Part shown: positions 8,393 to 41,946 of the stretch, one piece after another | Layout of the letters: each line of letters starts with the position of its first letter | Numbering within the stretch: position 1 is the first letter of the stretch | Notes under the pieces: generated by a model | Seen by the model: only the letters and a program-made list of their open reading frames with translations | Database searches by the model: none | Told to the model about the DNA's origin: nothing | Origin: an uncultured Gemmatimonadota bacterium | GTDB lineage: Bacteria > Gemmatimonadota > Gemmatimonadetes > Palauibacterales > Palauibacteraceae | Assembly: GCA_964607465.1 (NCBI GenBank) | Contig: CAZSKS010000008.1 | Location: 1 to 62,052 of the forward strand | Reading direction: 5' to 3' | DNA length: 62,052 bases | Made by a program: the position numbers and the translations under genes

Positions 8393-8456
8393 GATCCGTG
8401 GTCGCTCCGGGCAGCCCCCGGCCAGCCAGGGATCGAGAAGGAGAGGAGACGAACCC

Positions 8457-9038
8457 ATGCAGATACCACCGGAGATCAGCTTCCGCGGCGTCCCGGTCAC
8501 CGACCGGCTCAAGGGTCGGATCCAGGACGAGGTCGACAAGCTGGAGCGCTACTACGACGGCATCGTGCGGTGCCGGGTGGCCGTCGAGCTGCCACACCGC
8601 CGCCACGAGGACGGGAACCTGTACCACGTGGGCATTCGCGTCACCGTCCCCGGGCGCCAGCTGGTGGTCAGCCACGACCCGGGAAGGAACGAGACCCACG
8701 AGGATCTGGACGTGGCCATCACCGACGCCTTCCAGGCCATGGCCCGCCAGCTCGAGGAGCACTCCCGAGAGGTGCGGCACGAGGTCAAGACCCACGAGGT
8801 GCCGCCCCACGGCGAGGTACGGAAGCTGTTCCCGTACGAGGACTACGGATTCATCCGGACGCCGGACGGGCGGGACGTCTACTTCCACAGGAACGCCGTC
8901 GCCGACGGAGGCTTCGACGAGCTGGAGCTCGGCACGGAGGTGCGCTTCGCCGAGGAGCAGGGCGTCGAGGGACCGCAGGCGACCGTCGTGCACCTCCTGG
9001 GGAAGCGCGATCTCCCGCCCGTCGACACCGTGAGGTGA
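8457..9038 (+). CDS. HPF/RaiA-like ribosome-associated domain fused to a cold-shock (CSD/OB) domain
   Basis: The N-terminal ~110 aa, MQIPPEISFRGVPVTDRLKGRIQDEVDKLERYYDGIVRCRVAVE...LYHVGIRVTVPGRQLVVSH...LDVAITDAFQAMARQLEE, fits the S30AE/HPF fold pattern. The C-terminal part, GEVRKLFPYEDYGFIRTPDGRDVYFHRNAV...ELELGTEVRFAEEQGVEGPQATVV, looks like a CSD. Strong SD (AAGGAGAGGAG). Confidence 0.75.
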   Translation: MQIPPEISFRGVPVTDRLKGRIQDEVDKLERYYDGIVRCRVAVELPHRRHEDGNLYHVGIRVTVPGRQLVVSHDPGRNETHEDLDVAITDAFQAMARQLEEHSREVRHEVKTHEVPPHGEVRKLFPYEDYGFIRTPDGRDVYFHRNAVADGGFDELELGTEVRFAEEQGVEGPQATVVHLLGKRDLPPVDTVR

Positions 9039-15500: not shown

Positions 15501-18260
15501 ACGACCGGCGGGGAGGAGCAGGGGGTCCAGGGCGACGTCCATCTGCTGCGGACGGAGGAGATGGACGGGGAGGACGTGGAGCTGCTGCAGGCGGCGGCCC
15601 GGGTGGTCCTGCACGCCCGGGACGGCTCGCTGTCCGAGCAGCTGGAGGACGTCCGGTCGCAGGAGACGCGTCGCCCGCCGCCGACCGACCTGGCGCCCCC
15701 GGACGTGGCGCCCGAGGCGCCCTCGCCGCGGCCGGGCCTCCGGTTCTACAACGGGCTCGGCGGGTTCTCGGAGGACGGGCGGGAGTACGTCATCGTCCTG
15801 GGCGAGGGGCAGTGGACCCCGGCGCCCTGGGTGAACGTGGTGGCCAACGAGCGCTTCGGCTTCCTGGCCTCCGAGGCGGGCTCCGGGTTCACCTGGGCGG
15901 CGAACAGCCGGGAGAACCGGCTCACGCCCTGGTCCAACGATCCCGTGGCGGATCCGCCGGGGGAGGCCCTGTACGTGCGGGACGAGGCCACCGGAGAGGT
16001 GTGGACCCCGACGCCCCTGCCCATCCGGGAGGCCACGCCCTACCGGATCACCCACTCCCAGGGGTGGACCCGCTTCGAGCACGAGAGCCACGGCGTCCGC
16101 CTGGAGCTGACCCAGCTCGTTCCCCCCGACGACCCGGTCAAGATCTCCCGACTCCGGCTGCGCAACCGGTCGGGCCGGTCCCGGCGGCTCTCGGTCACGG
16201 CCTACGCCGAGTGGGTGCTGGGCGTGCAGCGGGAGCGGGCGGCGCCCCACGTGAGGACCGCGGTGGACGAGGCGACGGGGGCGCTCCTGGCCCGCAACGG
16301 CTGGAACGAGGAATTCGCCCGCCGGACGGCCTTCGCGGACCTGGCCGGCGAGCAGGACGCCTGGACGTGCGACCGCACGGAGTTCCTGGGCCGCAACGGG
16401 ACCCCGGCCTCCCCGGCGGCGATGGCTCCCGGTCGGGAGCTGTCGGGCACCGCCGGCGCGGGACGGGACCCGTGCGCCGCCCTGCGCCGCGAGGTGCGCC
16501 TGGCGCCGGGCGGGGAGGCCGAGGTGGTGTTCCTGCTGGGGCAGGGGCGCGACGCCGACGAGGCCCGGGAGCTGGTCCGGCGATACCGGGCGGCGGATCC
16601 GGACGACGTGCTGGAGGCGGTCCGCACCCACTGGGACGACATCCTGGGCACCGTGCAGGTGGACGTGCCGGACGGCTCCATGGAGCCGATGCTGAATCGG
16701 TGGCTCCTCTACCAGACCCTCTCCTGTCGGCTCTTCGGACGTTCGGCCTTCTACCAGTCGGGGGGCGCCTACGGCTTCCGGGACCAGCTCCAGGACGTCA
16801 TGGCGCTGACCGTCGCCCGCCGCGACCTGGCCCGGGAACACATCCTCCGGGCCGCGGGCCGCCAGTTCCCCGAGGGCGACGTCCAGCACTGGTGGCACCC
16901 GCCGTCGGGCCGCGGCGTGCGGACCCGCATCTCCGACGACCTGCTGTGGCTGCCCTTCGCGGCGCTCCACTACCTGCGGGTCACCGGCGACGCCTCCGTG
17001 CTGGAGGAGGAGGTGCCCTTCCTGGAGGGCGAGGTGCTGGGGGAGGACGAGCTGGAGCGGTACTTCGAGCCCGAGCGGACGGAGGCGACGGCCACGCTGT
17101 ACGAGCACTGCGCCCGGGCCCTGGACGCACGTCTCGAGGCCGGGCCCCACGGCCTCCCCCTCATGGGGTCGGGCGATTGGAACGACGGCATGGACCGGGT
17201 GGGCCACCGGGGGCGGGGGGAGAGCGTGTGGATGGGCTGGTTCCTCCACATGAACCTGGCGGGCTTCGCGCCGCTGGCCGAGGCCCGGGGCGAGGAGGCT
17301 CGGGCCCGGGCGTGGCGACGGCGCATGGACGAGCTGGCGGAGGCCCTGGAGCGCCACGGCTGGGACGGGGACTGGTACCGGAGAGCCTACTTCGACGACG
17401 GGACGCCCCTGGGCTCCTCGGCCAACGACGAGTGCCGCATCGACTCCATCGCCCAGTCCTGGGCCGTGCTGTCGGGCGTGGCCCGGCCGTCCCGCCAGCG
17501 GCGGGCGATGCAGTCGGTGGAGCAGTACCTGGTGCGCCGGGGGGACGCGCTGGTGCTCCTCTTCACGCCGCCCTTCGACGAGGGGGAGCTGGACCCCGGC
17601 TACATCAGGGGCTACCTGCCGGGGGTGCGGGAGAACGGCGGCCAGTACACCCACGCCGCCATCTGGTCGGTGCTGGCCTTCGCCGAGCTGGGGGACGGCG
17701 ACGGGGCGGCGGAGCTGTTCTCGATCCTGAATCCCGTCAACCAGGCGAGCACACGGGCCGGGGTGCACCGCTACAAGGTGGAGCCCTACGTGTCGGTGGG
17801 CGACGTCTACGCCGAGCCGCCCCACACCGGACGGGGGGGCTGGAGCTGGTACACGGGCTCGGCGGGCTGGATGCACCGGGCGGGGCTGGAGTGGATCCTG
17901 GGCTTCCGCCTGCGGGGCGACACGCTGCGCCTGGACCCCTGCATCCCGCGGGACTGGCCGGGCTTCTCGATGACCTTCCGGTACCATTCGGCGCGCTACG
18001 AGATCGAGGTCGAGAGCCCCGGCGGCGACATGCGGGGCGTATCGGCGGCGGAGGTGGACGGCGAGCCGGCGCGGGTCGACGACGAGGGCGCCTGGATTCC
18101 CCTGGCCGACGACGGGGCGACCCACCGCGTGCGGGTGCTGCTGGGCGGCGCGGGGGACGGGGAGGCGAGCCGGTCGGACGGGGACGGCGGGATCGGCTCG
18201 GGGGGTGAGGACGGCTCGCCGGGCGCTGCCCACGAGCGTGGGGGATCTCCCGACGGCTGA
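9507..18260 (+). CDS. ndvB: cyclic beta-1,2-glucan synthase (NdvB/ChvB/Cgs type: membrane GT domain plus GH94-like phosphorylase domain)
   Basis: 2917-aa single ORF. It has TM helices flanking a glycosyltransferase core ([41 protein letters not shown] as a QxxRW-like motif). The C-terminal GH94-type region carries [13 protein letters not shown] and [10 protein letters not shown]. Size and domain order match Cgs/NdvB. Confidence 0.9.
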
Positions 18261-18376: not shown

Positions 18377-19567
18377 ATGATCACGCCTCACACGCCGCAG
18401 GAAGAGGTTCCGAGCCCCGGTGATCCGTCCTCCGACGCGCGGCCGCCCTCCGACGCGCGGCCGGCCTCCGATCGGCACGTCAGAAGCCCGACGGAGGTGC
18501 CGGAGACGATCCTCGTCGCCCTGGACGGCTCGCCCTTCGGGGAGACGGCGCTGGCACACGCCCGGGTGCTCGCGCGGGCTTTCGGCAGCCGCCTCCACCT
18601 GGTCACGGTGTTCGATCCGAGCCGATCCGGAGGGACCGTGGCCGTGAGCGCCGAATGTCGGCTCCAGATGGCAGAGGCGAAGAACTACCTGGAGCGCCTG
18701 GCCAGGAGTCTGGAGGACGACCGGCTCGCGGCCGACCTCGAGACGCGGGAGGGTAACCCCGCCCACGAGATCGTGGCCGCCGCCCGGGAGCGGGAGGCGG
18801 GTCTCGTGGTCCTCGCGGCGCGGCCACGGCGACGGGACGAGCGACTCGTCTCCCGGGGCGTCGCCCAGGGCGTCATCGCGGCAGGCGTCGGCTCGCTCCT
18901 GGTGGCGCGGGGAGAGCCGATGTGTCGGGGGCGTGACCGGGCGGATGCGATGTACCGGAGGATCGCCGTCGCCGTGGACGGCTCTTCGGCCAGCCACCGG
19001 GCCCTGCGTGTGGCGGCGTCGCTGGCCCGGAGCGAGGGCGCGCGTCTGGTGCTCGTCCACGTCTTCCCTCCCGGGACCGGAACGTCGGAGGGGCGCGCGG
19101 CCAGCCGGAGCCAGGGGGGAGAGTCGGGGGTCGGCACCGACGCTCCCCGGTCGGACGGTGCGTACCTGCGGGAGCTGGCGAGCCGGCTGGACGGCCCGGG
19201 AACCGGGGTGGACACCGTCCTGTGCCGCTCGAGCCGCGTGGCCGACACCGTGGAGGAGGTGGCGAGGGAGGTGGGGGTCGACCTGCTGGTGCTGGGAGCT
19301 CGGGGGGCCGGGCGGGCGAGCTCCCGTTACGGCGGATGCGCCCGCTGGCTCCTGCGGCACGGCCAGGTGCCGGTCCTGGTCGTGCGGGGCGCCGAGGGGA
19401 AGACGACGGCGGACGGGTGGAAGACGGGGGCGCGGGGCGCCCTGCGAAATCGGCGGCCCCGGGAGCATATTCGTGGCGGGCCACGATACGGTCGTGGCCC
19501 GCGATCCGGGACCCCGGTCCGTGCCGCTGAGTCCGGAGGCGTCAACGAAGAGAGGAGCCGTCGATGA
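18377..19567 (+). CDS. universal stress protein, tandem USP domains, with a repeat-containing N-terminus and a long basic tail
   Basis: Two USP domains: ETILVALDGSPFGETALAHARVLARAFGSRLHLVTVF...LVVLAAR and YRRIAVAVDGSSASHRALRVAASLARSEGARLVLVHVF...LLVLGARGAGR...VPVLVVR. The stop overlaps the next start (ATGA at 19564-19567). The exact start is uncertain. Confidence 0.85.
   Translation: MITPHTPQEEVPSPGDPSSDARPPSDARPASDRHVRSPTEVPETILVALDGSPFGETALAHARVLARAFGSRLHLVTVFDPSRSGGTVAVSAECRLQMAEAKNYLERLARSLEDDRLAADLETREGNPAHEIVAAAREREAGLVVLAARPRRRDERLVSRGVAQGVIAAGVGSLLVARGEPMCRGRDRADAMYRRIAVAVDGSSASHRALRVAASLARSEGARLVLVHVFPPGTGTSEGRAASRSQGGESGVGTDAPRSDGAYLRELASRLDGPGTGVDTVLCRSSRVADTVEEVAREVGVDLLVLGARGAGRASSRYGGCARWLLRHGQVPVLVVRGAEGKTTADGWKTGARGALRNRRPREHIRGGPRYGRGPRSGTPVRAAESGGVNEERSRR
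18429..18475 (+). repeat. in-frame 18-bp tandem repeat (2.6 copies) in the N-terminus of the first USP gene
   Basis: CCTCCGACGCGCGGCCGC / CCTCCGACGCGCGGCCGG / CCTCCGATCGG, encoding the repeated peptide (P)SDARP. Confidence 0.8.
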
Positions 19568-20487
19568 ACATCAAGAAGGTGCTGTTCGCCACCGATTTCT
19601 CGGAGCGCTCGGAGACGGCGCTCCCCCACGCGCTGTGGTACGCCCGGGAATTCGGGGCGGAGCTCCACATGCTGCATGCCGTGGTGCTCCACGCCGCGGA
19701 CCCGGCCAACCCCGACGTCGACTTCCCGGACCTGGAGGCGGCGTACGACGAGGTGCGGCGGTGGGCCTCGGCCCGCATGGAGGCGGCCGCCGGCCGGGTC
19801 GACGACGCCGGCGTCGCGGTGAAGCGCGTGGAGGAGAGGGGCGTCGCCGCCGCCCCGGTGATCCTGGATTACGCCCGGGAGGAGGGGGTGGACCTGATCG
19901 TGCTGGCCACCCACGGCCGGCGCGGCGTCCGCCGGATGCTGATGGGGAGCGTGGCCGAGGAGGTGGTCCGGCTGGCCGCCCGCCCCGTCCTGACGGTGCG
20001 GCCGAACGGGGCGGAGGAGCACGGCGAGCCGCCCCGCAGCGTCCTCGTTCCGGTGGACTTCTCGGAGCACTCCGACCGGGCGCTGGCCTACGGCGGCGCC
20101 CTGGCCGGGAGGACCGGCGCCGAGCTCCACGCGCTCCACGTGGTCCCGGAGATGTCGTTTCCCGACCCCTATTTTGCCGAGGCCGCCCAGATCCGCGCCA
20201 TGGCGAAGGCCGCCCAGGAGAGGGTGCCCGAGGCCATGCAGCGCAACGTCCGGGAGGTGCTGGGCGAGGAGGCCGACGTCCACGTCCACCTGGAGGTGGG
20301 CACGCCGGCGGCCACCATCGTCCGCGTGGCCGAGGAGGAGGCCATCGACCAGGTGGTCCTCTCGAGCCACGGCCGCACGGGCCTCGAGCGGATGCTGCTG
20401 GGGAGCGTGGCCGAGGGCGTCGTCCGCCGCGCCCCGTGTCCGGTCCTGACCGTGAAGGCCTTCGGCCGGGACCTGCTGGCCGGGTGA
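19564..20487 (+). CDS. universal stress protein, tandem USP domains
   Basis: MNIKKVLFATDFSERSETALPHALWYAREFGAELHMLHAV...DLIVLATHGRRGVRRMLMGSVAEEVVRLAARPVLTV, plus a second copy of the same pattern (SVLVPVDFSEHSDRAL...VVLSSHGRTGLERMLLGSVAEGVVRRAPCPVLTV). Confidence 0.92.
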   Translation: MNIKKVLFATDFSERSETALPHALWYAREFGAELHMLHAVVLHAADPANPDVDFPDLEAAYDEVRRWASARMEAAAGRVDDAGVAVKRVEERGVAAAPVILDYAREEGVDLIVLATHGRRGVRRMLMGSVAEEVVRLAARPVLTVRPNGAEEHGEPPRSVLVPVDFSEHSDRALAYGGALAGRTGAELHALHVVPEMSFPDPYFAEAAQIRAMAKAAQERVPEAMQRNVREVLGEEADVHVHLEVGTPAATIVRVAEEEAIDQVVLSSHGRTGLERMLLGSVAEGVVRRAPCPVLTVKAFGRDLLAG

Positions 20488-20541: not shown

Positions 20542-21861
20542 TTGGCTGAGCCCGCCGGCGGGCCGGCTCCCGCCCGGGGCGCGCCCGGGCCCGCGGGGAC
20601 GATCGCCGACGCCCCGGCCTTCCGGATCCCGGGCCAGCACTTCGCCGCGTCCCTCCTCTTCCTGGTGGCCGGGGCGACGGGCCTGGCGTGGCAGGCGCCG
20701 GCCGTGGCCGCGGGGGCCTTCTCGTCCTCCGGGGTCGTGGCGTCGGCCCACCTGCTGACGGTGGGCTGGATCGGCACCTCCATCATGGGCGCCCTCTACC
20801 AGCTGCTGCCCGTGGCGCTGGGGGCGACGCTGCGCTGGGAGCGGTTGGGCGACGCCGCGTTCTGGGCGTGGACGGTCGGCCTGGCGGCCTTCGCCGCCGG
20901 GATCGTGGTCCGGGAGCCGCGCCTCCACGTGCCCGGGGCGGTCCTGCTGGGGCTGGGCGTGGCGCTGTTCGCCGCCAACGTGGCCGCCACGCTGCCGCGG
21001 ACCGCCCGGCGGGACCTCACCTGGTGGTGCGTGGCGGGCGGCGTCCTCTTCCTCCTGGGCGGGTGGGTGCTGGGCCTCCTGCTGGCCGTGAACCTGGGGA
21101 CGGGCGTCCTGGGCGGCAGCCGCTACGCGGTGCTGGCGGTCCACCTGCACCTGGCCGCCGGGGGGTGGGTGCTGCTGACCGTCGTCGGCGTCGCCCACCG
21201 GCTCCTGCCGATGTTCCTCGGCAGCCGGGGAGCGTCCCGCCTGCCGGGCCGGATCGCCGCCGGGCTGGTGGGCGGCAGCGCCGGGGCCCTGCTGCTGAGC
21301 GGACACCTGCTGCCGGGGAGCGTCCTGCGTCCGGCGCTGGCGGTCATGGGGCTGGGGACGGTGGCCTTCCTGGCGCAGGCCGGGCTCCACTTCCGCCGTC
21401 GGACGCGGAGCGAGATCCACCCCGGGCTGCGGCTGGCGGCGGTGGGCCTGGCGCTGCTCGGGCTGGCGGCGCTGGCCGGTCTCGCTCTCCTGGCGACGGG
21501 CCGATCGGCCCTTCGGCTGCTGACCGCCTACGGAATCCTGCTGATCCCCGGGGGCCTGGGCCTCTTCCTGGCGGGCTTCCAGTACCGCATCGTGCCGTTC
21601 CTGACGTGGACACACCGGTACGCGCCCCGGGCCGGCGGGGCCGACGGGGAGGCGGTGCCCCGGCCCGAGGAGCTGGTGGACCCGCGGGGCCCCCTCGCCG
21701 CCACGCTCCTGCTGGCGGCGGGCGTGCTGCTTCTGGCTGCCGGGGCCGTGGCCGGGGAGACGGCCGCGGCGCGGGCCGGCGGGGTGGCCTTCACCGCCGG
21801 GGCGGCGATCGAGGCGGGCCAGCTGCTGGCCGTGCTGGCGGGCTGGCGGAGGCGGCGCTGA
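20542..21861 (+). CDS. polytopic (about 12 TM) His-bearing membrane protein with heme-copper-oxidase-helix-like motifs; function unknown
   Basis: Motifs SAHLLTVGWIGTSIMGALYQLLP, LAVHLHLAAGGWVLLTVVGVAHRLLPMFLG and LAGFQYRIVPFLTWTHRY. There is no His-His pair. The start is a TTG in the ORF track and is uncertain. Confidence 0.55.
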   Translation: MAEPAGGPAPARGAPGPAGTIADAPAFRIPGQHFAASLLFLVAGATGLAWQAPAVAAGAFSSSGVVASAHLLTVGWIGTSIMGALYQLLPVALGATLRWERLGDAAFWAWTVGLAAFAAGIVVREPRLHVPGAVLLGLGVALFAANVAATLPRTARRDLTWWCVAGGVLFLLGGWVLGLLLAVNLGTGVLGGSRYAVLAVHLHLAAGGWVLLTVVGVAHRLLPMFLGSRGASRLPGRIAAGLVGGSAGALLLSGHLLPGSVLRPALAVMGLGTVAFLAQAGLHFRRRTRSEIHPGLRLAAVGLALLGLAALAGLALLATGRSALRLLTAYGILLIPGGLGLFLAGFQYRIVPFLTWTHRYAPRAGGADGEAVPRPEELVDPRGPLAATLLLAAGVLLLAAGAVAGETAAARAGGVAFTAGAAIEAGQLLAVLAGWRRRR

Positions 21862-22001: not shown

Positions 22002-22931
22002 TCAGATCAGGACGTCGGCCACCCCCGCGCCCAGCGTGACGGGCAGGTAGAGGAGGGAGGCGAGGAAGAGCCGCCGGGCGTGGCGGGCCGAGCGATCGCG
22101 GAGGAAGGCCGCCGCCGGCAGCACGAGGGCGAGCCCGGCCGCGACGGCGGCCCCGCCGTACAGCGGCCCGAGGTCGGCGTGGGCCAGGGGCACCAGGCTC
22201 ACCGCCAGCAGCAGCCCGGCCCAGGTCAGGGCGTGGCGGCCGCTGCGCCGGCCGCTGGGATCGGCCACGGCCAGCGTCGCGAAGCCCGCCGCCCGGTACT
22301 CGGATCGGTGCATCCACTCCAGGGCGAAGAAGTGGGGCAGCTGCCAGGCCAGCAGCATCCCGAAGAGCGCCCAGCCGGTGGGCCCGACGCCGCCGGTGGC
22401 CGCCGCCCAGCCGCCCAGCACGGGCAGCGCGCCGGGCAGGGTCCCCACGTGGGTGGACCAGGGCGTCCGCGCCTTGAGGGGCGTGTAGAGCAGCAGGTAG
22501 CTGAGCACCGTGAGGGCTGCCAGCCCGCCCACCAGCGGGGTCACGCCAGCCCACAGCAGGCCGGTCCCCACGACGGCGAGGCCGACGCCCCAGGTCAGGC
22601 CCCCGGCGGCGCCGATGCGGCCCGACGGGATCGGTCGGCCCCGGGTGCGCTCCATCCGGGCGTCCCGCCCCCGCTCCATCCACTGGTTCAGGGCGTTCGT
22701 GCCCCCGCACGCCAGGGCGGTCCCGGCCAGCAGCAGGAGGAGCCGGAGGGGGTCGCCGTCCCGGGCCGCTCCGATCAGGTAGCCGGCCCCGGCGGTGGCC
22801 GCCACCAGCCCGGTGATGCGGGGCTGGGCCATCTCCACGAGGGCGGCCGGGAGCGATCCCCGGGCCGGGGCGCCGGGCGATCCGCGGGCCGAGGGACGGC
22901 GGTCCGTCCGGGGCTGGCTGTCGCGTTCCAT
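22002..22931 (-). CDS. ctaB: protoheme IX farnesyltransferase (heme O synthase), UbiA family
   Basis: PRITGLVAATAGAGYLIGA...LAGTALACGGTNALNQWMERGRDARMERTRGRPIPSGRI...YTPLKARTPW. Polytopic, with typical CtaB/CyoE motifs. Confidence 0.9.
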   Translation of the reverse strand: MERDSQPRTDRRPSARGSPGAPARGSLPAALVEMAQPRITGLVAATAGAGYLIGAARDGDPLRLLLLLAGTALACGGTNALNQWMERGRDARMERTRGRPIPSGRIGAAGGLTWGVGLAVVGTGLLWAGVTPLVGGLAALTVLSYLLLYTPLKARTPWSTHVGTLPGALPVLGGWAAATGGVGPTGWALFGMLLAWQLPHFFALEWMHRSEYRAAGFATLAVADPSGRRSGRHALTWAGLLLAVSLVPLAHADLGPLYGGAAVAAGLALVLPAAAFLRDRSARHARRLFLASLLYLPVTLGAGVADVLI

Positions 22932-22961
22932 GGGGCGTGGCTCGTGAAGGGTGGACGAGGG

Positions 22962-22990
22962 TTGACCCGGACTCGAACCGTGACGATACT
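22962..22990 (+). promoter_or_regulatory. sigma70-like promoter candidate for the Rrf2-oxidase operon, inside an AT-rich island
   Basis: TTGACC (22962-22967), a 17-nt spacer, then GATACT (22985-22990), followed by ATATAAC. It sits in the 200-nt divergent ctaB/rrf2 intergenic region, which is the most AT-rich stretch of the window. Confidence 0.4.
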
Positions 22991-23131
22991 ATATAACCGC
23001 ATACGGAACTCCACAATTCGACGGACGCGGGGAGCGCCGGCCGGGGCGAGGCCCGGGCGAGGACTGTGCCGGCCGGGAGAATTCCACGGGCGGGAAGCGC
23101 GCCAGCCGCGGTCAGGCGGGTCGCCAGGCCG

Positions 23132-23623
23132 ATGCTCAACAGCTCTGCGGAATACGCGCTGAAGGCGACGCATCTCCTGGCCCGCATCGAACCGGGGGAG
23201 CGCCGGACGGCGGAGGAGCTGGCCGCGGAGCTGGACCTGCCGGCCAACTTCCTGTCGAAGCTGCTGGGCCGGCTCCGGCAGCGGGGGATCCTGGAGTCGC
23301 GGCCGGGGCCGAGCGGCGGATTCCGGCTGGCGCGGGAGCCGTCGGAGGTGACGCTGGCCGAGGTGGCCGGCCCCTTCGACGACCTGGTGCGGGACCGTCA
23401 GTGCCTGCTGGGCCGGCCGGAGTGCCGCGACGACGCGCCCTGCGCGGCCCACGAGCGCTGGAAGGAGCTGGCCGACCGGGTCGAGCGCTTCTTCCGGGAG
23501 ACGACGCTGGCGGACCTGGACGCCCGGCCCCGGGTCGGATCCCCTGCCGGGAACGGGCGACGGGCCGGCGAGGGCGGGACGGCGAGCGGCGGCTCGAGGT
23601 CGGAAGGCGAGGAGACCGCATGA
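23132..23623 (+). CDS. Rrf2 family transcriptional regulator with a three-Cys Fe-S-type motif (NsrR/IscR-like)
   Basis: MLNSSAEYALKATHLLARIEPGERRTAEELAAELDLPANFLSKLLGRLRQRGILESRPGPSGGFRLAR is an Rrf2 wHTH. The Cys cluster is C-x6-C-x5-C in RQCLLGRPECRDDAPCAAH. I chose the ATG at 23132; the stop overlaps the next ORF (ATGA at 23620-23623). Confidence 0.85.
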   Translation: MLNSSAEYALKATHLLARIEPGERRTAEELAAELDLPANFLSKLLGRLRQRGILESRPGPSGGFRLAREPSEVTLAEVAGPFDDLVRDRQCLLGRPECRDDAPCAAHERWKELADRVERFFRETTLADLDARPRVGSPAGNGRRAGEGGTASGGSRSEGEETA

Positions 23624-23787
23624 CGGGGGACGGCATGACGGACGAGACGAAGGACGAAGGCCGGGCGCCGCTGCCCCAGCGCCTCTACGAGAGCATCTGG
23701 CTGTGGGCGGCGGTGGCGATCCTCTTCTGGCTCCTCTCGTACGTGGTCTGGGGCTTCATCGACCTGACGGTCATCCCGGGGGGCTGA
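23620..23787 (+). CDS. 55-aa single-TM protein, candidate small subunit (IIa-like) of the second oxidase
   Basis: MTGDGMTDETKDEGRAPLPQRLYESIWLWAAVAILFWLLSYVVWGFIDLTVIPGG. It is translationally coupled to the regulator upstream and ends 1 nt before the subunit II ATG at 23789. It occupies the same position as ORF 27-224 in cluster 1. Confidence 0.55.
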   Translation: MTGDGMTDETKDEGRAPLPQRLYESIWLWAAVAILFWLLSYVVWGFIDLTVIPGG

Positions 23788-23788
23788 C

Positions 23789-24328
23789 ATGAGCTCACCG
23801 ATCCGATCGCCGGAGGGCCACTGGTGGAACTGGCCCGTCAGCGGCCAGGAGAAGACGTGGATCGGCCTGGTGATCGTCACCGGGGTGATCCTCTTCGGCT
23901 GGATGTTCGGCTGGATGTACGCCGGCGCCCAGAACCCCACCGGCCCCACCTATCGGGTCTCCGCGGCCGAGTTCCGGGAGAAGATGACCGACTACCGGGA
24001 GGAGGCGACGAGGACGGAGCGCGGCCTCCGCCCGGCGGGTCGGGACGTCTACGTGGCCGGCTCGCAGTTCGCGTGGAACGGGCTCCCGGTGGTCCTGGAG
24101 GCCGGCGTGGAGTACCGGCTGCACCTGAGCAGCTACGACGTGCAGCACGGCTTCTCCGTGCGCCCGGAGCACGACCTCTGGAAGCAGATGAACCTGCAGG
24201 CCCTGCCCGGCTACGAGTGGGTCGTGCCGATGCGCTTCGAGGAGCCCGGCACCTACTACGTCGTCTGCAACGAGTTCTGCGGCGTGGGGCATCGGGTGAT
24301 GAGCGGCCAGTTCCACGTGGTCGAGTGA
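23789..24328 (+). CDS. CuA-containing subunit II of a divergent heme-copper oxidase
   Basis: One TM helix (WIGLVIVTGVILFGWMFGWMYAG) plus a cupredoxin domain. CuA ligands: VQHGFSV and C-x3-C-x3-H-x2-M in VCNEFCGVGHRVM. No cytochrome c domain. Confidence 0.88.
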   Translation: MSSPIRSPEGHWWNWPVSGQEKTWIGLVIVTGVILFGWMFGWMYAGAQNPTGPTYRVSAAEFREKMTDYREEATRTERGLRPAGRDVYVAGSQFAWNGLPVVLEAGVEYRLHLSSYDVQHGFSVRPEHDLWKQMNLQALPGYEWVVPMRFEEPGTYYVVCNEFCGVGHRVMSGQFHVVE

Positions 24329-24344
24329 CGGGAGGGGGCGCGCG

Positions 24345-26060
24345 GTGATCCGAGACCTGTTCGACGGCGGCTACGGCGAGGACGGATTCCGGACCTGCTC
24401 GATCACGGGCCTCCGCGTCCACCGGTCGGTGGAGAACCTGGCGAAGGTCTTCGGCCTCACCGCCGTGGTGGCGCTGCTGATCGGCGGTGTGGGGGCCTTC
24501 TTCGTGGCGATGACCCGCTGGGAGGTCGTCGGCCTCCTGGGCGCCGAGGACTTCTACCGGGTGCTCAGCGTCCACGCCTGGCACCTGCTCATCTTCTGGA
24601 TGGTGTTCATGGAGGTCGCCATCCTCTACGTGGGCGGGCCCATGGTGCTGGGGCGGAAGATGCCGGCCCCCTCGCTGGCGAAGGTCGGCTGGGGGCTGAT
24701 GGTGGCCTCGGCCGTGGCCATCACCTGGGCCATCTGGGTCACCGATCCACCGGCCCACCAGCAGCCCCTGCTCACCTCCTACGCGCCGCTGGAGTCCCAC
24801 CCGGTCTTCTACGGCGGGGTCGTCGCCTTCATCCTCGGCACGGTGATCGCGGCCCTGCCGTTCTTCGCCTCGCTGTGGCAGGAGAAGAGCGAGTTCCCCG
24901 ACCGGACGCTGCCGCTGGTCACCTTCGGGGCCTTCGCCACCTCCATCATCGCCCTGGAGGCGCTGGTGGGCGGGCTGATCACCTACGTCCCCACCTTCCT
25001 GTGGTCGGTGGGGGTGGTGGAGACGATCGACGCCGGCTGGTACCGCCAGGCCTACTGGACGATCGGCCACGGGTCCCAGCAGATCAACCTGCTGGCCATG
25101 ATCACGGTGTGGTACTTCATGACCCACGTGGTCGGCGGGGCGCAGGTGGTGAGCGAGAAGATCTCCCGCACGGCCTTCATCCTGTACGTCTTCTTCATCA
25201 ACATGGGCGCCGCCCACCACCTGCTGGCCGACCCCGCGGTGAGCGGCGGATGGCGGATCTGGAACGCCTCCTACGCCATGTACGGCGCGGTCGGCGCCAG
25301 CATGATCCACGCGTTCGCCATCCCGGCGGGTCTGGAGGCGGGCCTCCGCAAGAAGGGGATCGGCGGGGACGGCTGGTTCGGCTGGCTGCGGTCGGCGCCC
25401 TGGCACGACCCCGGCTTCTCGTCCACCGTGTTCAGCATCGCGCTCTTCGGCTTCCTGGGCGGGATCAGCGGCGTGCTGGTGGGCCAGATGCAGCTCAACG
25501 TGATGCGGCACAACACCTTCGCGATCCCCGGGCACTTCCACGCCACGGTGGCCGTCGGCACGACGCTGGCCTTCATGGGCCTGATCTTCTTCATGCTCCG
25601 CGCGAACTTCTTCCGCGACTGGGTGGGGAAGACGATGGCCCGGCTCCAGCCCTTCCTCTACTCGGGCGCCATGGGCCTGGCCGTGATGGCGATGATGGTC
25701 CTGGGGATCATGTACAGCGTGCCCCGCCGGCACCCGGAGGGCGTGGCGCTGCCCGGCATCGAGCTCAGCCTGGACGCCGCCGGGCCCATGTTCGCCGTCT
25801 TCGGGGTGACGGCCCTGGGGGCCATCCTCGCCGGGGCGATCTTCGTGGCCGTGGCCCTGGCGACGCTGCTGTTCGGGAAGCGGAGCCAGCCGAGCGTCCC
25901 GATCCCGGGGGCCGCCACGGCCTCCGGCGCCGACGCCGGGCTCCACGCCTACTCCATGCGGGGGACCTTCGCCCTCTGCATCGTCTTCCTGATCTCCTTC
26001 GGCGTGCTCTTCTGGCTCGACTGGGCGTGGCTCGCCGACATGTGGCAGTTCGGCACGTGA
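24345..26060 (+). CDS. divergent heme-copper oxidase superfamily subunit I lacking the cross-linked Tyr (candidate NO reductase of B-family-derived type)
   Basis: 571 aa. It retains SVHAWHLLIFW, WTIGHGSQQINLL (CuB His at 25068-25070), GAAHHLLADP and IPGHFHATV. Ungapped alignment with cluster-1 subunit I (RTLFWYSGHPIVYFWLLP vs RQAYWTIGHGSQQINLLA) places Gln (25080-25082) at the Tyr position. GTG start with a GGGAGGGGG SD. Confidence 0.85.
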   Translation: MIRDLFDGGYGEDGFRTCSITGLRVHRSVENLAKVFGLTAVVALLIGGVGAFFVAMTRWEVVGLLGAEDFYRVLSVHAWHLLIFWMVFMEVAILYVGGPMVLGRKMPAPSLAKVGWGLMVASAVAITWAIWVTDPPAHQQPLLTSYAPLESHPVFYGGVVAFILGTVIAALPFFASLWQEKSEFPDRTLPLVTFGAFATSIIALEALVGGLITYVPTFLWSVGVVETIDAGWYRQAYWTIGHGSQQINLLAMITVWYFMTHVVGGAQVVSEKISRTAFILYVFFINMGAAHHLLADPAVSGGWRIWNASYAMYGAVGASMIHAFAIPAGLEAGLRKKGIGGDGWFGWLRSAPWHDPGFSSTVFSIALFGFLGGISGVLVGQMQLNVMRHNTFAIPGHFHATVAVGTTLAFMGLIFFMLRANFFRDWVGKTMARLQPFLYSGAMGLAVMAMMVLGIMYSVPRRHPEGVALPGIELSLDAAGPMFAVFGVTALGAILAGAIFVAVALATLLFGKRSQPSVPIPGAATASGADAGLHAYSMRGTFALCIVFLISFGVLFWLDWAWLADMWQFGT

Positions 26061-26091
26061 CCGACCGGATGGATGGAACCGGAGGTGAGCG

Positions 26092-26265
26092 ATGAGCGAC
26101 ACTGAGCGGACGCCCGGGAGCCCGTCGCCGGCGCCGGGGACCCCGACGGTGGAGTACGAGGGACCGGGCGCCTGGGGGCCGGCGGCGATGTGGCTGCTCG
26201 GGGCGCTGTTCGTGCTCTCGGCCGCCGCCACCGTCCACTCCATCCTGGCGACGTTCGGCGGCTGA
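26092..26265 (+). CDS. 57-aa single-TM protein, candidate extra small subunit of the second oxidase (not in the ORF track)
   Basis: My own translation: MSDTERTPGSPSPAPGTPTVEYEGPGAWGPAAMWLLGALFVLSAAATVHSILATFGG. A GGAGG SD lies 6 nt upstream, and the ORF starts 32 nt after the subunit I stop. Confidence 0.5.
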   Translation: MSDTERTPGSPSPAPGTPTVEYEGPGAWGPAAMWLLGALFVLSAAATVHSILATFGG

Positions 26266-26473
26266 CGGCCGGGGGCGGCTCGCCCCCGCACGGTCGCCGT
26301 CGCTCGCGCCCTCCCGTCGTCCCGGGGGTCCCGCGGCCTCGGGCCCGACCACCTCCGTCGCGAGCCCGCGGGCGCCGGCACACGGGGCTCCGCCGCGTGT
26401 ATGGTGGTCTCCGTGCCGCCGCCGCGGGTCCGCCCCGCGGCCGGATTCCACACCCCGGCCCCGAGGTCCCCGC

Positions 26474-27997
26474 ATGCACGCCGAGCCCGCCCCCCACGCC
26501 CGATCCGGACCCGGCGCGGCGCTCCTCGTAACCGCGCTCGCCCTGGCGTCGGTCCCCGCGGGGGCGTCGGCCCAGGCGCCGGCCACGGCCACGGGGGTGG
26601 AGACCCGGGGGGTGGAGAGCATCACGGCCGTGGACCTGCGACAGCGGGTCGGGATCCTGGCCCACGACTCCATGCGGGGCCGGGACACGCCGAGCCCGGA
26701 GCTCGAGGAGACGGCACGCTGGATCGCCGAGCGGTTCCGCTCGTTCGGCCTGCAGCCCGGGCTGGGCAGCCAGGGCTACCTGCAGTGGTATCCCCTCACC
26801 GTGGTGGAGCCCGGCCCGCCCTTCCGGCAGCGCCTGACCCTGGAGGGACCCGCCGGTCGCACGACGCTGGACGCCCGGGAGGAGTTCGTGGCCGCGCCCA
26901 CCGGCCAGCGGACGACCGCCAGCGGCCCCCTGCGGCGTTGGAGCCCGGCGGAGGGGACGGCGGCGCCCGCCGACGGCATCCTCCTGGTGCCGGTGGACCG
27001 GGCGTCGGTGGGTTCGGCCTTCGAGGGCGTCCGGCAGGCGCTGGGAGACGACGGCGCCGCGGGGGCGATCTTCGTGGTCGAGGGCCCGGACGCCTTCTTC
27101 CAGCGGGTGCGGGGCTTCTTCGCCACCCGGCAGATCTCGCTGGGTGAGCCGGACGCCCTCTCCAAACCCGTGGGCCTGGTGCGGCGGCAGGGTCTGCCCG
27201 AGGCGCTGGTCCGGGAGCTGGAGGGAGACCTGGAGGGCGAAGCCTGGACGGCGGAGCTCCGGACCGACGCCACCGTCCGGGGGCGCCGGGCGCCCAACGT
27301 GATCGGCTGGATCGAGGGCTCCGACCCCGAGCTGCGGGACGAATACGTCGTCTTCACGGCCCACATGGATCACGTGGGCGTGGGCGAGCCGGTGGAGGGC
27401 GACTCCATCTACAACGGGGCCGACGACGACGGCTCCGGCACGGCCGCCGTCCTGGAGCTGGCCGAGGCCTTCGCCGGCGGGCCGGCGCCCCGGCGCTCGG
27501 TGATCTTCATGACGGTGAGCGGGGAGGAGAAGGGGCTCTTCGGCTCCCGCTGGTACAGCGAGCACCCCGTCTTCCCCCTGGACCGGACCGTGGCGGCGCT
27601 GAACATGGACATGATCGGCCGGAACTGGAAGGACACGGTGGTGGCCGTCGGCAAGCAGGAGTCCAGCCTCGGCGCCACCGTCGACAGCGTGACGGCGGCC
27701 CACCCGGAGCTGGACATGACGGTGGTGGAGGACCGGTGGCCGGAGCAGAACTTCTACCGGCGCTCCGACCACTACAACTTCGCCCGCAAGGGCGTGCCGA
27801 TCCTATTCTTCTTCAGCGGCGTGCACGAGGACTACCACCAGCCGTCCGACGAGGTGGACCGGCTGGACTACGACAAGACCGCGCGGATCGTCCGCCTGGT
27901 CTACCTCCTGGGACGGAGCGTGGCCGACGCGGACGAGCCGCCCCGGTGGGATCCGGAGGCGTACGAGCGGGTGGTCGAGGAGGGCGGCGGACGCTAG
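26474..27997 (+). CDS. secreted M28 family metallopeptidase (aminopeptidase) with PA-like insert
   Basis: Signal peptide AALLVTALALASVPAGASAQA. M28 metal-binding motifs: VVFTAHMDHVG, YNGADDDGSGTAAVLELA, FMTVSGEEKGLFGSRWY, LNMDMIG and HEDYHQPSD. Confidence 0.88.
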   Translation: MHAEPAPHARSGPGAALLVTALALASVPAGASAQAPATATGVETRGVESITAVDLRQRVGILAHDSMRGRDTPSPELEETARWIAERFRSFGLQPGLGSQGYLQWYPLTVVEPGPPFRQRLTLEGPAGRTTLDAREEFVAAPTGQRTTASGPLRRWSPAEGTAAPADGILLVPVDRASVGSAFEGVRQALGDDGAAGAIFVVEGPDAFFQRVRGFFATRQISLGEPDALSKPVGLVRRQGLPEALVRELEGDLEGEAWTAELRTDATVRGRRAPNVIGWIEGSDPELRDEYVVFTAHMDHVGVGEPVEGDSIYNGADDDGSGTAAVLELAEAFAGGPAPRRSVIFMTVSGEEKGLFGSRWYSEHPVFPLDRTVAALNMDMIGRNWKDTVVAVGKQESSLGATVDSVTAAHPELDMTVVEDRWPEQNFYRRSDHYNFARKGVPILFFFSGVHEDYHQPSDEVDRLDYDKTARIVRLVYLLGRSVADADEPPRWDPEAYERVVEEGGGR

Positions 27998-40986: not shown

Positions 40987-41946
40987 TCAGCCCCCCGGAG
41001 CCTCCCCCCGCCCGTCGCCCTCGCCGCGGTCGGCCGCGGGCACCGCGTCGCCGGCCAGCGTCCGCTGGACCCATTCCCGGGCCACCTGCCGGAAGTCCCG
41101 ACCCTCCACGTCCACCTGCCGGTTCAGACGGCGCATCTCCGGCGTGTCGATCAGGCCGCCCAGCCGCTCCAGGGAGCGGCGCAGCTCGGGGTGGCGCTCC
41201 AGCAGCGCCGCGTCCACCACCGGCGCCGCGTGATAGGGCGGGAAGTAGCGGCGGTCGTCCTCCAGCATCGCCAGGTCCAGGGCCTCGATCTGGCCGTCGG
41301 TGGAGTTGCCGGCGATGACGTCCACCTTCCCCTCCGCCAGGGCCCGGTAGATGAGCCCCAGCTCCATGGTCCGCGGCTCGCCCCGGAAGCTCATGTCGTA
41401 GGTCTCCCGGAGCCCGGGCAGGCCGTCCTCGCGCTCCACGAACTCGTAGTTGACGCCCAGGCGGAGGCCCTCGGCGTGCTCGGCCAGGTCGGAGACGGTC
41501 TCCAGGCCCAGCGAGTCCGCCGTCGAGCGCCGCACGAGCATGGCGAAGGTGTTCTCGAAGCCCAGCGGCTCGGTCCATTCCAGGTTCCAGCGTTCCCGAT
41601 AGGCCCGCCGGACGGCCCGGAGCACGCTGTCGGGATCCTGCACCGGCGGCCGCTCCAGGATGGCGGTCAGGGCGGTCCCCGTGTACTCGACGTAGAGGTC
41701 CAGCTCGCCCGTGGTGAGGGCCTCGTGGCAGATGAAGGTGCCCCCCAGGTGCAGCCGCCGCCGGACGGTCAGGTCGGTGGTCCGCTCGATCCAGGTGGCC
41801 ACCAGCTCCCCCAGGAGGTCCTGCTCGGTGAAGAACTTGGAGCCGACGACGACCGTGTCCTCGTCCGCGCCGCAGCCGGCCACGGCAGGGGCCAGGAGGA
41901 GGGGCGCCAGGAGCCCGGCCAGCCGGCGACGCCAGGTGCGGCTCAC
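40987..41946 (-). CDS. ABC transporter substrate-binding lipoprotein, OpuC/OsmF (quaternary-amine) family
   Basis: Lipobox LLLAPAVAGC. Domain: VVVGSKFFTEQDLLGELVATWIE...GELDLYVEYTGTAL...LGFENTFAMLVR...LGLIYRALAEGKVDVIAGNSTDGQI...LEDDRRYFPPYHAAPVV. The GTG start overlaps the permease stop (GTGA at 41943-41946). Confidence 0.85.
   Translation of the reverse strand: MSRTWRRRLAGLLAPLLLAPAVAGCGADEDTVVVGSKFFTEQDLLGELVATWIERTTDLTVRRRLHLGGTFICHEALTTGELDLYVEYTGTALTAILERPPVQDPDSVLRAVRRAYRERWNLEWTEPLGFENTFAMLVRRSTADSLGLETVSDLAEHAEGLRLGVNYEFVEREDGLPGLRETYDMSFRGEPRTMELGLIYRALAEGKVDVIAGNSTDGQIEALDLAMLEDDRRYFPPYHAAPVVDAALLERHPELRRSLERLGGLIDTPEMRRLNRQVDVEGRDFRQVAREWVQRTLAGDAVPAADRGEGDGRGEAPGG

What the first reader, a model, noticed from the sequence alone, without database searches (positions are those of the whole stretch)
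23132..26265. Second CuA-type heme-copper oxidase lacks the cross-linked tyrosine: candidate nitric oxide reductase derived from the B-family
The window carries two clusters with the same order: small TM protein, CuA subunit II, subunit I.
- Cluster 1 (27-2478) is a textbook ba3-type enzyme with GHPIVY.
- In cluster 2, subunit I (24345-26060) keeps every metal ligand: H in SVHAWH, H242 in TIGHG, H291/H292 in AAHHLL, and H397/H399 in GHFH.
- An ungapped alignment of the two paralogs (RTLFWYSGHPIVYFWLLP vs RQAYWTIGHGSQQINLLA) puts Gln (codon 25080-25082) where the His-Tyr cross-link tyrosine sits. It also puts Asn where the following Trp sits.
- Loss of the active-site Tyr with retention of the His ligands is the hallmark of NO-reducing members of the superfamily. 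CuA-bearing NOR families related to B-type oxidases have been proposed (bNOR/CuANOR, sNOR, eNOR). I cannot assign this protein to one of them from memory.
- The operon is headed by an Rrf2 regulator with a C-x6-C-x5-C motif like the NO sensor NsrR, and it ends with an extra 57-aa TM peptide that cluster 1 lacks.
Basis: partly seen in the sequence, partly recalled or inferred. Interest (0 to 1): 0.8.

Follow-up and report, generated by a model that had tools for sequence, protein, structure and literature searches.

The report
eNOR-type nitric oxide reductase operon

Summary
Subunit I (24345-26060) keeps all six histidine metal ligands. It has Gln246 (codon 25080-25082) where B-family oxidases have the cross-linked tyrosine, and Asn248 where they have Trp.

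This H-x3-Q signature is the published diagnostic of the eNOR family. The protein is 63% identical over its full length to the Rhodothermus marinus DSM 4252 eNOR-type subunit I; that organism's eNOR was purified and reduces NO but not O2. In a neighbour-joining tree the window protein groups with it at 96-100% bootstrap, apart from Tyr-bearing B-family oxidases. All 167 relatives retrieved by similarity carry GH(G/S)xQQIN.

Subunit II has a complete CuA site, and part of the ba3-type K proton path is retained. The small TM protein is conserved in 75 of 80 related loci. The 57-aa ORF is a real, conserved gene in the Gemmatimonadota/Salinibacter branch. A heme o synthase gene is divergently adjacent.

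The Rrf2 regulator is translationally coupled to the operon, and Rrf2 genes recur beside eNOR genes in 6 other loci. Its ligand set (Cys91, Cys98, Cys104, His107) matches IscR rather than NsrR.

Verdict: a new member of a known kind, of modest interest.

The parts
22962..22990 (+). Sigma-70-like promoter (TTGACC, 17 nt, GATACT) in the AT-rich island between ctaB and rrf2
   Evidence: It is the only promoter-like site in 22800-26600, against 0.1 expected from shuffles. The local GC minimum is 0.42 in a 74% GC window. Function is inferred.
22002..22931 (-). ctaB/cyoE heme o synthase, divergently transcribed from the operon
   Evidence: NCBIfam TIGR01473 scores 232.8 bits against a 210.3-bit equivalog cutoff. 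Pfam gives UbiA. A CtaB homolog lies within 7 kb of the eNOR genes in 39 of 80 related loci.
23132..23623 (+). Rrf2-family regulator with putative Fe-S ligands Cys91, Cys98, Cys104, His107. Its stop codon overlaps the next gene's ATG (ATGA at 23620-23623).
   Evidence: Pfam Rrf2 scores 97.6 bits. The best PDB and NCBIfam matches are IscR. Ligand positions come and the junction sequence. Homologs with the same C-x6-C-x5-C-x2-H motif lie next to eNOR genes in L081, L082, L003, L004, L005 and L007.
23620..23787 (+). 55-aa single-helix membrane protein, probably a small eNOR subunit (comparable in position to ba3 subunit IIa)
   Evidence: Homologs sit directly upstream of subunit II in 75 of 80 loci from Bacteria and Archaea. 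The conserved core is QRLYES-WL-A-A-LF-LSYVVWG-D-PGG. A GGAG motif precedes the ATG.
23789..24328 (+). eNOR subunit II: one TM helix plus a cupredoxin domain with a complete CuA site (His120, Cys160, Cys164, His168, Met171). Glu21 aligns with ba3 Glu15(II).
   Evidence: Pfam gives COX2. The best solved relative is ba3 subunit II at E 1.7e-13. The ligands align residue for residue with ba3 positions H114, C149, C153, H157 and M160. Calling those ba3 residues the CuA ligands rests on established knowledge of ba3, not on a tool result.
24345..26060 (+). eNOR subunit I (571 aa). Heme ligands are His77/His399 (low-spin) and His397 (high-spin). The non-heme metal ligands are His242, His291 and His292. 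Gln246 replaces the cross-linked Tyr.
25077..25088 (+). Codons for Gln245-Gln246-Ile247-Asn248, the family-defining active-site segment
   Evidence: Q245, Q246, I247 and N248 are invariant in alignment A2.
26092..26265 (+). 57-aa membrane protein with a C-terminal helix ending in VHS-x2-ATFGG. It is a conserved extra small subunit candidate, restricted to the bacterial (Gemmatimonadota/Salinibacter) branch.
   Evidence: Homologous ORFs lie directly after subunit I in 14 loci. Against L047, 30 of 50 nucleotide differences fall on third codon positions. A GGAGG motif lies 7 nt before the ATG.

Best explanation
The cluster 23132-26265 is an operon for an eNOR-type nitric oxide reductase. eNOR is a heme-copper-superfamily enzyme that descends from B-family (ba3-like) oxygen reductases.

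Proposed mechanism:
- Electrons from a periplasmic donor enter at the CuA centre of subunit II.
- They pass to the bis-His low-spin heme (His77/His399).
- They then reach the binuclear site, made of the high-spin heme (His397) and a non-heme metal held by His242, His291 and His292.
- There two NO are reduced to N2O and water.

The redox-active His-Tyr cofactor needed for four-electron O2 reduction is absent, because Gln246 replaces the Tyr. Invariant polar residues (Gln245, Gln246, Asn248, Asn286) line the site instead.

Protons probably come from the cytoplasm through a retained K-path analogue: Glu21 of subunit II, then Tyr257, Ser270, Ser319 and His322. That would make the reaction electrogenic.

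The 55-aa and 57-aa membrane peptides are likely small subunits. The divergent ctaB gene supplies heme o as the precursor of the A-type heme this family uses.

The co-translated Rrf2 protein probably carries an Fe-S cluster on Cys91/Cys98/Cys104/His107. It probably releases or changes control of the shared promoter when NO or O2 modifies the cluster.

Shown here: gene content, ligands, family membership, conservation and linkage. Taken from a characterised homolog: NO-reductase and not O2-reductase activity, and heme type. Inferred: proton path use, subunit status of the peptides, and the regulator's signal and direction.
For: Family diagnostic: Gln at His+4 matches the published eNOR criterion (PMC8756737).

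Link to the characterised enzyme:
- The protein is 63% identical and 77% similar over 567 residues to R. marinus DSM 4252 ACY47069.1.
- The R. marinus eNOR is Rmar_0161.
- The purified enzyme reduces NO at 0.68 per s and does not reduce O2.

Phylogeny: in the NJ tree the window protein sits in a clade with the R. marinus, Salinibacter and Natrinema proteins at 100% bootstrap. That clade sits inside a 96% Q-Q-N clade, separate from the V-Y-W B-family clade that holds the window's own cluster-1 subunit I.

Conservation: all 167 relatives have GH(G/S)xQQIN.

Cofactor sites: the CuA ligands are complete. Of the K path, Y248, S261 and S309 equivalents are kept, and S309 is cited as conserved in eNOR.

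Fold: the AF2 model (pLDDT 79, pTM 0.84) best matches B-family oxidases at TM 0.74-0.75, with cNOR only at rank 48.

Operon structure: an ATGA overlap and gaps of 1, 16 and 31 nt between the other genes. There is a single promoter-like site upstream.

Recurrent neighbours: CtaB in 39/80 loci, the small TM in 75/80, orf57 in 14 loci and Rrf2 in 6 loci.
Against: - No activity, metal content or heme type was measured for this protein.
- Three of the ba3 K-path residues are changed (Y244->I253, T312->H322, T315->A325), so proton uptake from the cytoplasm is not assured.
- No nitrite reductase, nitrate reductase or N2O reductase gene lies in the 62-kb window. A respiratory role rather than a detoxifying one therefore cannot be decided.
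- No heme a synthase (CtaA) gene is in the window.
- The Rrf2 gene is absent from the two closest relatives with enough flank to check (L047 at 87% and L083 at 89% identity). The palindrome shared by other Rrf2-linked promoters is not seen in the window.
- The identity ACY47069.1 = Rmar_0161 is inferred from the diagnostic motif and the accession order. It was not read from the record.
Confidence: 0.88

Rival explanations
1. It is an NO-detoxifying enzyme rather than a respiratory (denitrification) enzyme. The chemistry is the same, but the cell uses it to remove NO made by neighbours or by side reactions. It would be switched on by the Rrf2 sensor as a stress response.
For: The window holds no nir, nar, nap or nos genes. 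The surroundings are stress genes: two Usp genes, Hsp20, OsmC and a hibernation factor. The operon carries its own Rrf2 regulator of the kind that usually governs stress regulons.
Against: Only 62 kb of the genome is visible, and nir genes are often unlinked. In R. marinus, nirK, nirS, eNOR and nosZ carry locus tags that are far apart. The retained K-path residues suggest energy coupling.
Confidence: 0.3
2. It is still an oxygen reductase of the B family. It would have lost the canonical Tyr but use another residue or mechanism.
For: It has the B-family fold and closest solved relatives, a CuA subunit and all His ligands. Several Tyr are invariant in the family, including Tyr233 and Tyr237 one to two turns before His242.
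Against: The same invariant Tyr residues are present in the R. marinus protein, and the eNOR purified from R. marinus showed no O2 reduction with several donors. The authors found no migrated Tyr in models of these families. The position 6 residues before the HH pair, where I recall (not checked here) that cbb3 oxidases place their Tyr, is Ile285. The protein lies outside the Tyr-bearing clades.
Confidence: 0.04
3. It catalyses a different reaction on a small nitrogen or oxygen species, such as NO dismutation or N2O reduction. Such reactions have been proposed for other Tyr-less offshoots of the superfamily.
For: Tyr-less superfamily members close to qNOR and cNOR have been proposed as NO dismutase and N2O reductase. 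Nothing was measured for this protein.
Against: Those proposals concern families related to qNOR and cNOR, not B-family derivatives. The 63%-identical branch of eNOR has direct evidence for N2O production from NO.
Confidence: 0.03

Closest known systems
eNOR of Rhodothermus marinus DSM 4252 (Rmar_0161; Murali et al. 2024, PMC11214002)
   Same: 63% identity over the full length. Identical active-site segment GHGSQQIN and FINMGAAHH. Same small-TM, subunit II, subunit I gene order, seen in the Rhodothermus sp. locus L025.
   Different: Neither a downstream 57-aa ORF homolog nor a linked Rrf2 gene was detected by BLAST in the two Rhodothermus sp. MAG loci L021 and L025. The R. marinus DSM 4252 locus itself was not examined. 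The host here is probably a mesophilic or halophilic Gemmatimonadota member with 74% GC.
Cytochrome ba3 oxidase of Thermus thermophilus (B-family O2 reductase)
   Same: Closest solved structure by sequence (E 7e-35) and by fold (TM 0.74-0.75). Same six His ligands, CuA subunit II, small third subunit and part of the K path.
   Different: Tyr237 becomes Gln, Trp239 becomes Asn, Val236 becomes Gln, Thr312 becomes His and Tyr244 becomes Ile. Identity is only about 22-25%. The predicted substrate is NO, not O2.
bNOR (CuANOR of Bacillus azotoformans) and sNOR
   Same: CuA-bearing NO reductases derived from B-type oxidases without the Tyr cofactor.
   Different: sNOR is listed with Asn at the diagnostic position (Table A4), and bNOR is said to share the sNOR active site. 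Here the residue is Gln. bNOR is confined to Bacillales. No reference sequences were available for a direct comparison.
IscR / NsrR (Rrf2-family Fe-S regulators)
   Same: Winged-helix Rrf2 fold. The cluster-ligand spacing nearly coincides with E. coli IscR Cys92/Cys98/Cys104/His107. Control of a NOR gene by an Rrf2 protein is known for NsrR (general knowledge).
   Different: It falls below the curated cutoffs of both IscR (66 against 207 bits) and NsrR (21 against 182 bits). The first Cys is shifted by one residue. It is encoded inside the eNOR operon.

Membership tests
eNOR (heme-copper superfamily NO reductase) | Subunit I of the heme-copper superfamily with all six conserved His ligands | tested here: met
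   Pfam COX1 161.5 bits. H77, H242, H291, H292, H397 and H399 align with ba3 H72, H233, H282, H283, H384 and H386.
eNOR (heme-copper superfamily NO reductase) | Gln in place of the cross-linked active-site Tyr (published diagnostic) | tested here: met
   Gln246 aligns with ba3 Tyr237. The criterion comes from PMC8756737.
eNOR (heme-copper superfamily NO reductase) | Groups phylogenetically with a biochemically characterised eNOR, apart from O2 reductases | tested here: met
   NJ tree with 200 bootstraps: 100% for the clade with the R. marinus protein, 96% for the wider Q-Q-N clade. Limits: a distance method was used, and no labelled bNOR, sNOR, gNOR or nNOR references were included.
eNOR (heme-copper superfamily NO reductase) | Adjacent CuA-binding cupredoxin subunit II | tested here: met
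   His120, Cys160, Cys164, His168 and Met171 align with the ba3 CuA ligands.
eNOR (heme-copper superfamily NO reductase) | Conserved K-channel-like proton path including the Ser309 (ba3) equivalent | tested here: met
   Ser319, Tyr257, Ser270 and Glu21(II) are retained and invariant in the family. Three other ba3 path residues differ. Whether the path conducts protons cannot be tested here.
eNOR (heme-copper superfamily NO reductase) | Modified heme a (heme As) in both heme sites | not testable with these tools
   Only indirect evidence: a heme o synthase gene is adjacent. No ctaA gene is in the window.
eNOR (heme-copper superfamily NO reductase) | Reduces NO to N2O and does not reduce O2 | not testable with these tools
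   Known for the R. marinus enzyme only.
B-family heme-copper O2 reductase | His-Tyr cross-link tyrosine four residues after the first CuB histidine | tested here: not met
   Gln246 occupies that position. Cluster 1 in the same window does meet this feature, with GHPIVY.
sNOR / bNOR | Asn at the diagnostic active-site position | tested here: not met
   The residue is Gln, not Asn. Table A4 gives the criterion.
gNOR | One active-site His replaced by Asp, and a subunit II without CuA ligands | tested here: not met
   All three His are present, and the CuA ligands are present.
cNOR / qNOR / nNOR | Glu as the diagnostic active-site residue, a fourth ligand to FeB. cNOR has a cytochrome c subunit; nNOR has His/Met heme ligation. 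| tested here: not met
   The diagnostic position is Gln. Both low-spin heme ligands are His. The partner subunit is a cupredoxin. cNOR ranks only 48th by fold.
NsrR (NO-sensing Rrf2 repressor) | Scores above the curated NsrR model cutoff | tested here: not met
   NF008240 scores 21 bits against a 182-bit cutoff. No NsrR structure appears among the PDB hits at E <= 0.001.
IscR (Fe-S cluster-sensing Rrf2 regulator) | Cys92/Cys98/Cys104/His107-type ligand set, and a score above the curated IscR cutoff | tested here: inconclusive
   The ligand set is present as Cys91/Cys98/Cys104/His107. However, TIGR02010 scores 66.2 bits against a 207.55-bit cutoff.

The most novel reading that the evidence does not exclude
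The eNOR operons of the Gemmatimonadota/Salinibacter branch carry two parts not yet described for the family. The first is a dedicated Rrf2 regulator with an IscR-type Cys3-His cluster site, which would be a new NO- or O2-responsive switch for aerobic denitrification. The second is a fourth, 50-70-aa subunit with an invariant membrane-embedded His (VHS-x2-ATFGG). In some lineages a further uncharacterised HCO-like bis-His membrane protein may also work with eNOR.
Probability: 0.35. Interest if true: 0.4.

Novelty: new member of a known kind. Interest (0 to 1): 0.28.

Why it matters
eNOR enzymes make N2O, a greenhouse gas. They are reported to be among the most abundant and most expressed NO reductases in some environments.

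Public annotation still names these proteins 'cytochrome c oxidase subunit I' or 'cbb3-type oxidase'. No NCBIfam model recognises them. Flagging this operon therefore corrects the predicted physiology of its host, probably a Gemmatimonadota/Longimicrobiales member from a saline setting. Such a host would otherwise be scored as having two oxidases and no NO reductase.

The operon also offers a natural pair for comparison. A ba3 oxidase and an eNOR lie 21 kb apart in one genome. They could be used to compare how the Tyr-to-Gln active site changes chemistry.

The linked Rrf2 gene and the 57-aa peptide are cheap, testable leads on regulation and composition of eNOR.

Tried and rejected
- **Supplementary data:** I looked for the PNAS paper's supplementary alignments and HMMs, but none are held. 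No labelled bNOR, sNOR, gNOR or nNOR references could be put in the tree.
- **Direct search for the R. marinus protein:** searching with a Rhodothermus MAG protein did not list it by name. It was found only through the cluster member list.
- **Horizontal transfer:** the lower GC of the eNOR genes (0.68-0.69) is not a transfer signal. The ba3 genes have the same GC (0.69-0.70), so this is a membrane-protein effect.
- **Terminator:** the hairpin after the 57-aa ORF folds no better than shuffled sequence (z = -0.51). The only terminator-like site lies inside subunit I. No terminator can be claimed.
- **Shared operator:** ATCATGAT-like palindromes occur in L004, L005, L007 and L081, but not in the window. 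L004, L005 and L007 are close relatives, so this stays a lead.
- **RNA genes:** the window has no Rfam family at gathering score. The two ARAGORN tRNA calls lie inside coding regions and have odd lengths.
- **Structure model:** the AF2 model could only be compared at fold level. Coordinates could not be inspected, so distances from any Tyr to the metal site were not measured.
- **A first tree script** timed out and printed nothing. The tree was rebuilt.


Full report
**Anatomy.** The window is 62,052 bases at 73.7% GC. Five tightly packed plus-strand ORFs lie between 23132 and 26265:
- an Rrf2 regulator (23132-23623)
- a 55-aa single-helix protein (23620-23787)
- a cupredoxin subunit II (23789-24328)
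- a 571-aa subunit I (24345-26060)
- a 57-aa single-helix protein (26092-26265)

The Rrf2 stop codon overlaps the next ATG (ATGA at 23620-23623). The remaining gaps are 1, 16 and 31 nt, and Shine-Dalgarno-like motifs precede the small TM, subunit I and the 57-aa ORF. The only sigma-70-like site in 22800-26600 is TTGACC-17-GATACT at 22962-22990, against 0.1 expected by chance. It lies in an AT-rich island between the operon and a divergent heme o synthase gene (22002-22931). That gene passes the NCBIfam equivalog cutoff at 232.8 against 210.3 bits.

**Checking the observation.** Pfam assigns COX1, COX2 and Rrf2 to the three larger proteins. The best solved relative of subunit I is T. thermophilus ba3, at E 7e-35. 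I placed that alignment on native ba3 numbering.
- It reproduces the known ligand numbers: H72, H233, H282, H283, H384 and H386 map to H77, H242, H291, H292, H397 and H399.
- Gln246 sits at Tyr237, Asn248 at Trp239 and Gln245 at Val236.
- The codons were read directly: YWTIGHGSQQINLLAM from 25053, with Gln246 = cag at 25080-25082.

Cluster 1 (27-2478) is a ba3-type oxidase. Its subunit I scores 441 bits against T. thermophilus ba3 and carries GHPIVY.

**What it is.** Gln at this position is the published diagnostic of the eNOR family. Table A4 of PMC8756737, after Hemp and Gennis 2008, lists Y for oxygen reductases, E for cNOR/qNOR, N for sNOR and Q for eNOR. Murali et al. 2024 purified eNOR from Rhodothermus marinus DSM 4252. 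It reduces NO at 0.68 per s, does not reduce O2, and carries heme As (PMC11214002). The preprint names the gene Rmar_0161.

A similarity search returned 5,495 relatives at E <= 1e-10. The best are at 58-89% identity, from Gemmatimonadota, Longimicrobiales, Salinibacter, Rhodothermales and many Halobacteria. All are annotated as cytochrome c oxidase or cbb3-type subunit I. The cluster represented by P0099 contains ACY47069.1 / WP_012842681.1 of R. marinus DSM 4252. The window protein is 63% identical and 77% similar to it over 567 residues, with an identical active-site segment. I infer, but did not read from the record, that ACY47069.1 is Rmar_0161. It carries the diagnostic motif, and the paper says the genome encodes one eNOR.

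All 167 proteins gathered by similarity carry GH(G/S)xQQIN, and none has Tyr at His+4.

**Phylogeny.** I searched the 50%-identity representative library and tabulated the active-site residues. Four groups appear:
- the Q-Q-N group, which is eNOR
- a Tyr-retaining Q-Y-N group at 31-37% identity
- the classical V-Y-W B-family group
- a more distant H-Y-P group

In a neighbour-joining tree with 200 bootstraps, the window protein groups with the Salinibacter protein at 90%. It groups with the R. marinus, Natrinema and P0168 proteins at 100%, and with P0169 at 96%. The window's cluster-1 subunit I falls among the V-Y-W sequences. The tree uses a distance method and lacks labelled bNOR, sNOR, gNOR and nNOR sequences, so it does not replace a curated placement.

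**Structure.** The AF2 model (31-sequence alignment, mean pLDDT 79.3, pTM 0.84) shows the expected bundle of long helices. It best matches B-family oxidases (7DEG and ba3, TM 0.74-0.75). A-family, cbb3 and cNOR (rank 48) follow. No eNOR structure appears in the PDB copy.

I could not inspect coordinates, so the question of an alternative Tyr was addressed in three indirect ways.
- The invariant Tyr residues of the family are all shared with the R. marinus protein. The eNOR purified from R. marinus lacks O2 reductase activity.
- I recall, but did not check here, that cbb3 oxidases place their Tyr six residues before the HH pair. That position is Ile285 here.
- The authors report no migrated Tyr in models of these families.

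**Other subunits and cofactors.** Subunit II aligns best with ba3 subunit II (E 1.7e-13). It has His120, Cys160, Cys164, His168 and Met171 at the ba3 positions H114, C149, C153, H157 and M160, which I know as the CuA ligands. Glu21 aligns with Glu15(II), the entrance of the ba3 K path.

Within subunit I the ba3 K-path residues Tyr248, Ser261 and Ser309 are kept as invariant Tyr257, Ser270 and Ser319. Thr312 is an invariant His322. Thr315 and Tyr244 are replaced by Ala and Ile. This fits the statement that eNOR keeps a K-channel-like path including Ser309.

**Conservation of the neighbourhood.** A genome scan gave 80 loci. BLAST of the window's proteins against their six-frame ORFs shows:
- The 55-aa protein is present upstream of subunit II in 75 of 80 loci, including Rhodothermus and haloarchaea (alignment).
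- A CtaB homolog lies within 7 kb in 39 of 80 loci, often directly after subunit I.
- The 57-aa ORF has homologs directly after subunit I in 14 loci, 12 Gemmatimonadota/Salinibacter-type genome loci (L002-L007, L011, L014, L046, L047) plus L081-L083. They share LF-x-A-x-A-x-VHS-x2-ATFG(G) at the very C-terminus. Third-position substitutions predominate, 30 of 50 against L047. It is a real gene, restricted to that branch.

**The regulator.** Rrf2 homologs lie next to eNOR genes in L081 and L082, in the same upstream position as in the window. These loci carry an 85%-identical subunit I. Rrf2 homologs also lie downstream of subunit I in L003, L004, L005 and L007. All carry C-x6-C-x5-C-x2-H. The gene is absent from the flanks of L047 (87%) and L083 (89%).

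Its best solved relatives are E. coli IscR structures (E 6e-11). Cys98, Cys104 and His107 align with IscR's ligands, and Cys91 is shifted by one residue from IscR Cys92. It fails the curated cutoffs of both IscR (66 against 207 bits) and NsrR (21 against 182 bits). It is thus an unassigned cluster-binding Rrf2 protein. A response to NO or O2 is plausible from context but is not shown.

Promoters of four Rrf2-linked operons share an ATCATGAT-type palindrome just after the -10 element. The window does not have it.

**Context.** Pfam scans of essentially all coding regions of the window found no nitrate, nitrite or nitrous oxide reductase gene and no heme a synthase. The neighbours are stress and osmoadaptation genes:
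- two tandem-Usp proteins, Hsp20, OsmC and a hibernation factor
- a betaine ABC transporter and a cation-chloride cotransporter
- a 2,917-aa cyclic-glucan-synthase-like protein

The closest relatives of both the eNOR and the neighbouring 439-aa protein come from Gemmatimonadota/Longimicrobiales MAGs, several from hypersaline sites. The host is therefore probably a halotolerant member of that phylum. One 3-kb contig labelled Actinomycetota (L001) is too short to trust. Whether the enzyme serves denitrification or NO detoxification cannot be decided from 62 kb.

**Verdict.** It was proposed in 2008 and characterised in 2024. The 2024 paper counted 547 eNORs in GTDB genomes and 2,709 in IMG metagenomes. 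A 2026 estuary study found it the most abundant and most expressed nor type. This is a new member of a known kind.

Three modest points go beyond the literature I could search:
- the operon-encoded IscR-like Rrf2 regulator
- the conserved 57-aa peptide
- the recurrent uncharacterised HCO-like membrane protein nearby

A search for eNOR together with NsrR or Rrf2 found no relevant paper. That shows only that none is in this library.

Noticed in passing
window 20542-21861 (+): A 439-aa polytopic membrane protein with a weak, partial COX1 hit (41.8 bits to profile positions 312-396). In an alignment with six eNOR-linked relatives, the second His (the first His of HLHLAAGGW) is invariant, and the first (in AHLL-VGW) is kept only in the three closer relatives. 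All database relatives are 'hypothetical protein', mostly Gemmatimonadota/Longimicrobiales. Relatives sit directly beside eNOR genes in the haloarchaeal loci L048, L073 and L079. Possibly a heme-binding partner or assembly factor; function unknown.
   Followed up: partly
proteins P0172, P0174, P0178, P0194 and P0279, P0284 (representative library): The eNOR clade groups at 72% bootstrap with relatives that share eNOR's Gln245 and Asn248 equivalents but retain Tyr at the cross-link position (H-x2-Q-Y-x-N); most also share His322. A further pair (H-x2-Q-F-x-N) lacks the HH metal ligands altogether. These could mark the oxidase-to-NOR transition, or degenerate non-catalytic copies.
   Followed up: partly
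window 2560-3408 (+): Directly after the ba3 genes lies a fusion of a DUF2231 membrane domain with a cytochrome c'-like C-terminus carrying CVSCH. This may be a heme c electron carrier or gas-binding protein attached to the oxidase cluster.
   Followed up: no
L004 6166-6235, L005 1615-1684, L007 6127-6196, L081 7261-7330: Promoter regions of Rrf2-linked eNOR operons share TTGAC-17-GATAxx followed by an ATCATGAT / ATGATGATC palindrome. This is a candidate Rrf2 operator. It is not seen in the window's own promoter region (22962-23030).
   Followed up: partly
window 9507-18260 (+): A 2,917-aa protein with GH94 supersandwich and catalytic domains plus a glucoamylase-like domain. It resembles cyclic beta-1,2-glucan synthases, which fits an osmoadaptation theme.
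   Followed up: no
window 15118-15214 (-) and 20824-20923 (+): ARAGORN calls a tRNA-Pro and a tRNA-Gln of unusual length (97 and 100 nt) inside protein-coding regions. Rfam finds no tRNA at gathering score. They are probably false positives in GC-rich coding sequence.
   Followed up: partly
window 18377-20487 (+), 5621-9038, 40987-43557 (-), 56729-59158 (+): A dense set of stress and salt-adaptation genes surrounds the two respiratory clusters. It includes two tandem-domain Usp proteins, CBS-domain proteins, OsmC, Hsp20, a hibernation-factor/cold-shock-domain fusion, an OpuA-type betaine ABC transporter and a prokaryotic cation-chloride cotransporter.
   Followed up: no
window 24345-26060 and public records: [quoted passage not shown] No NCBIfam model reaches its cutoff; the best is TIGR02891 at 40.7 against 670.75 bits. 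Automated annotation therefore hides this NO reductase.
   Followed up: yes
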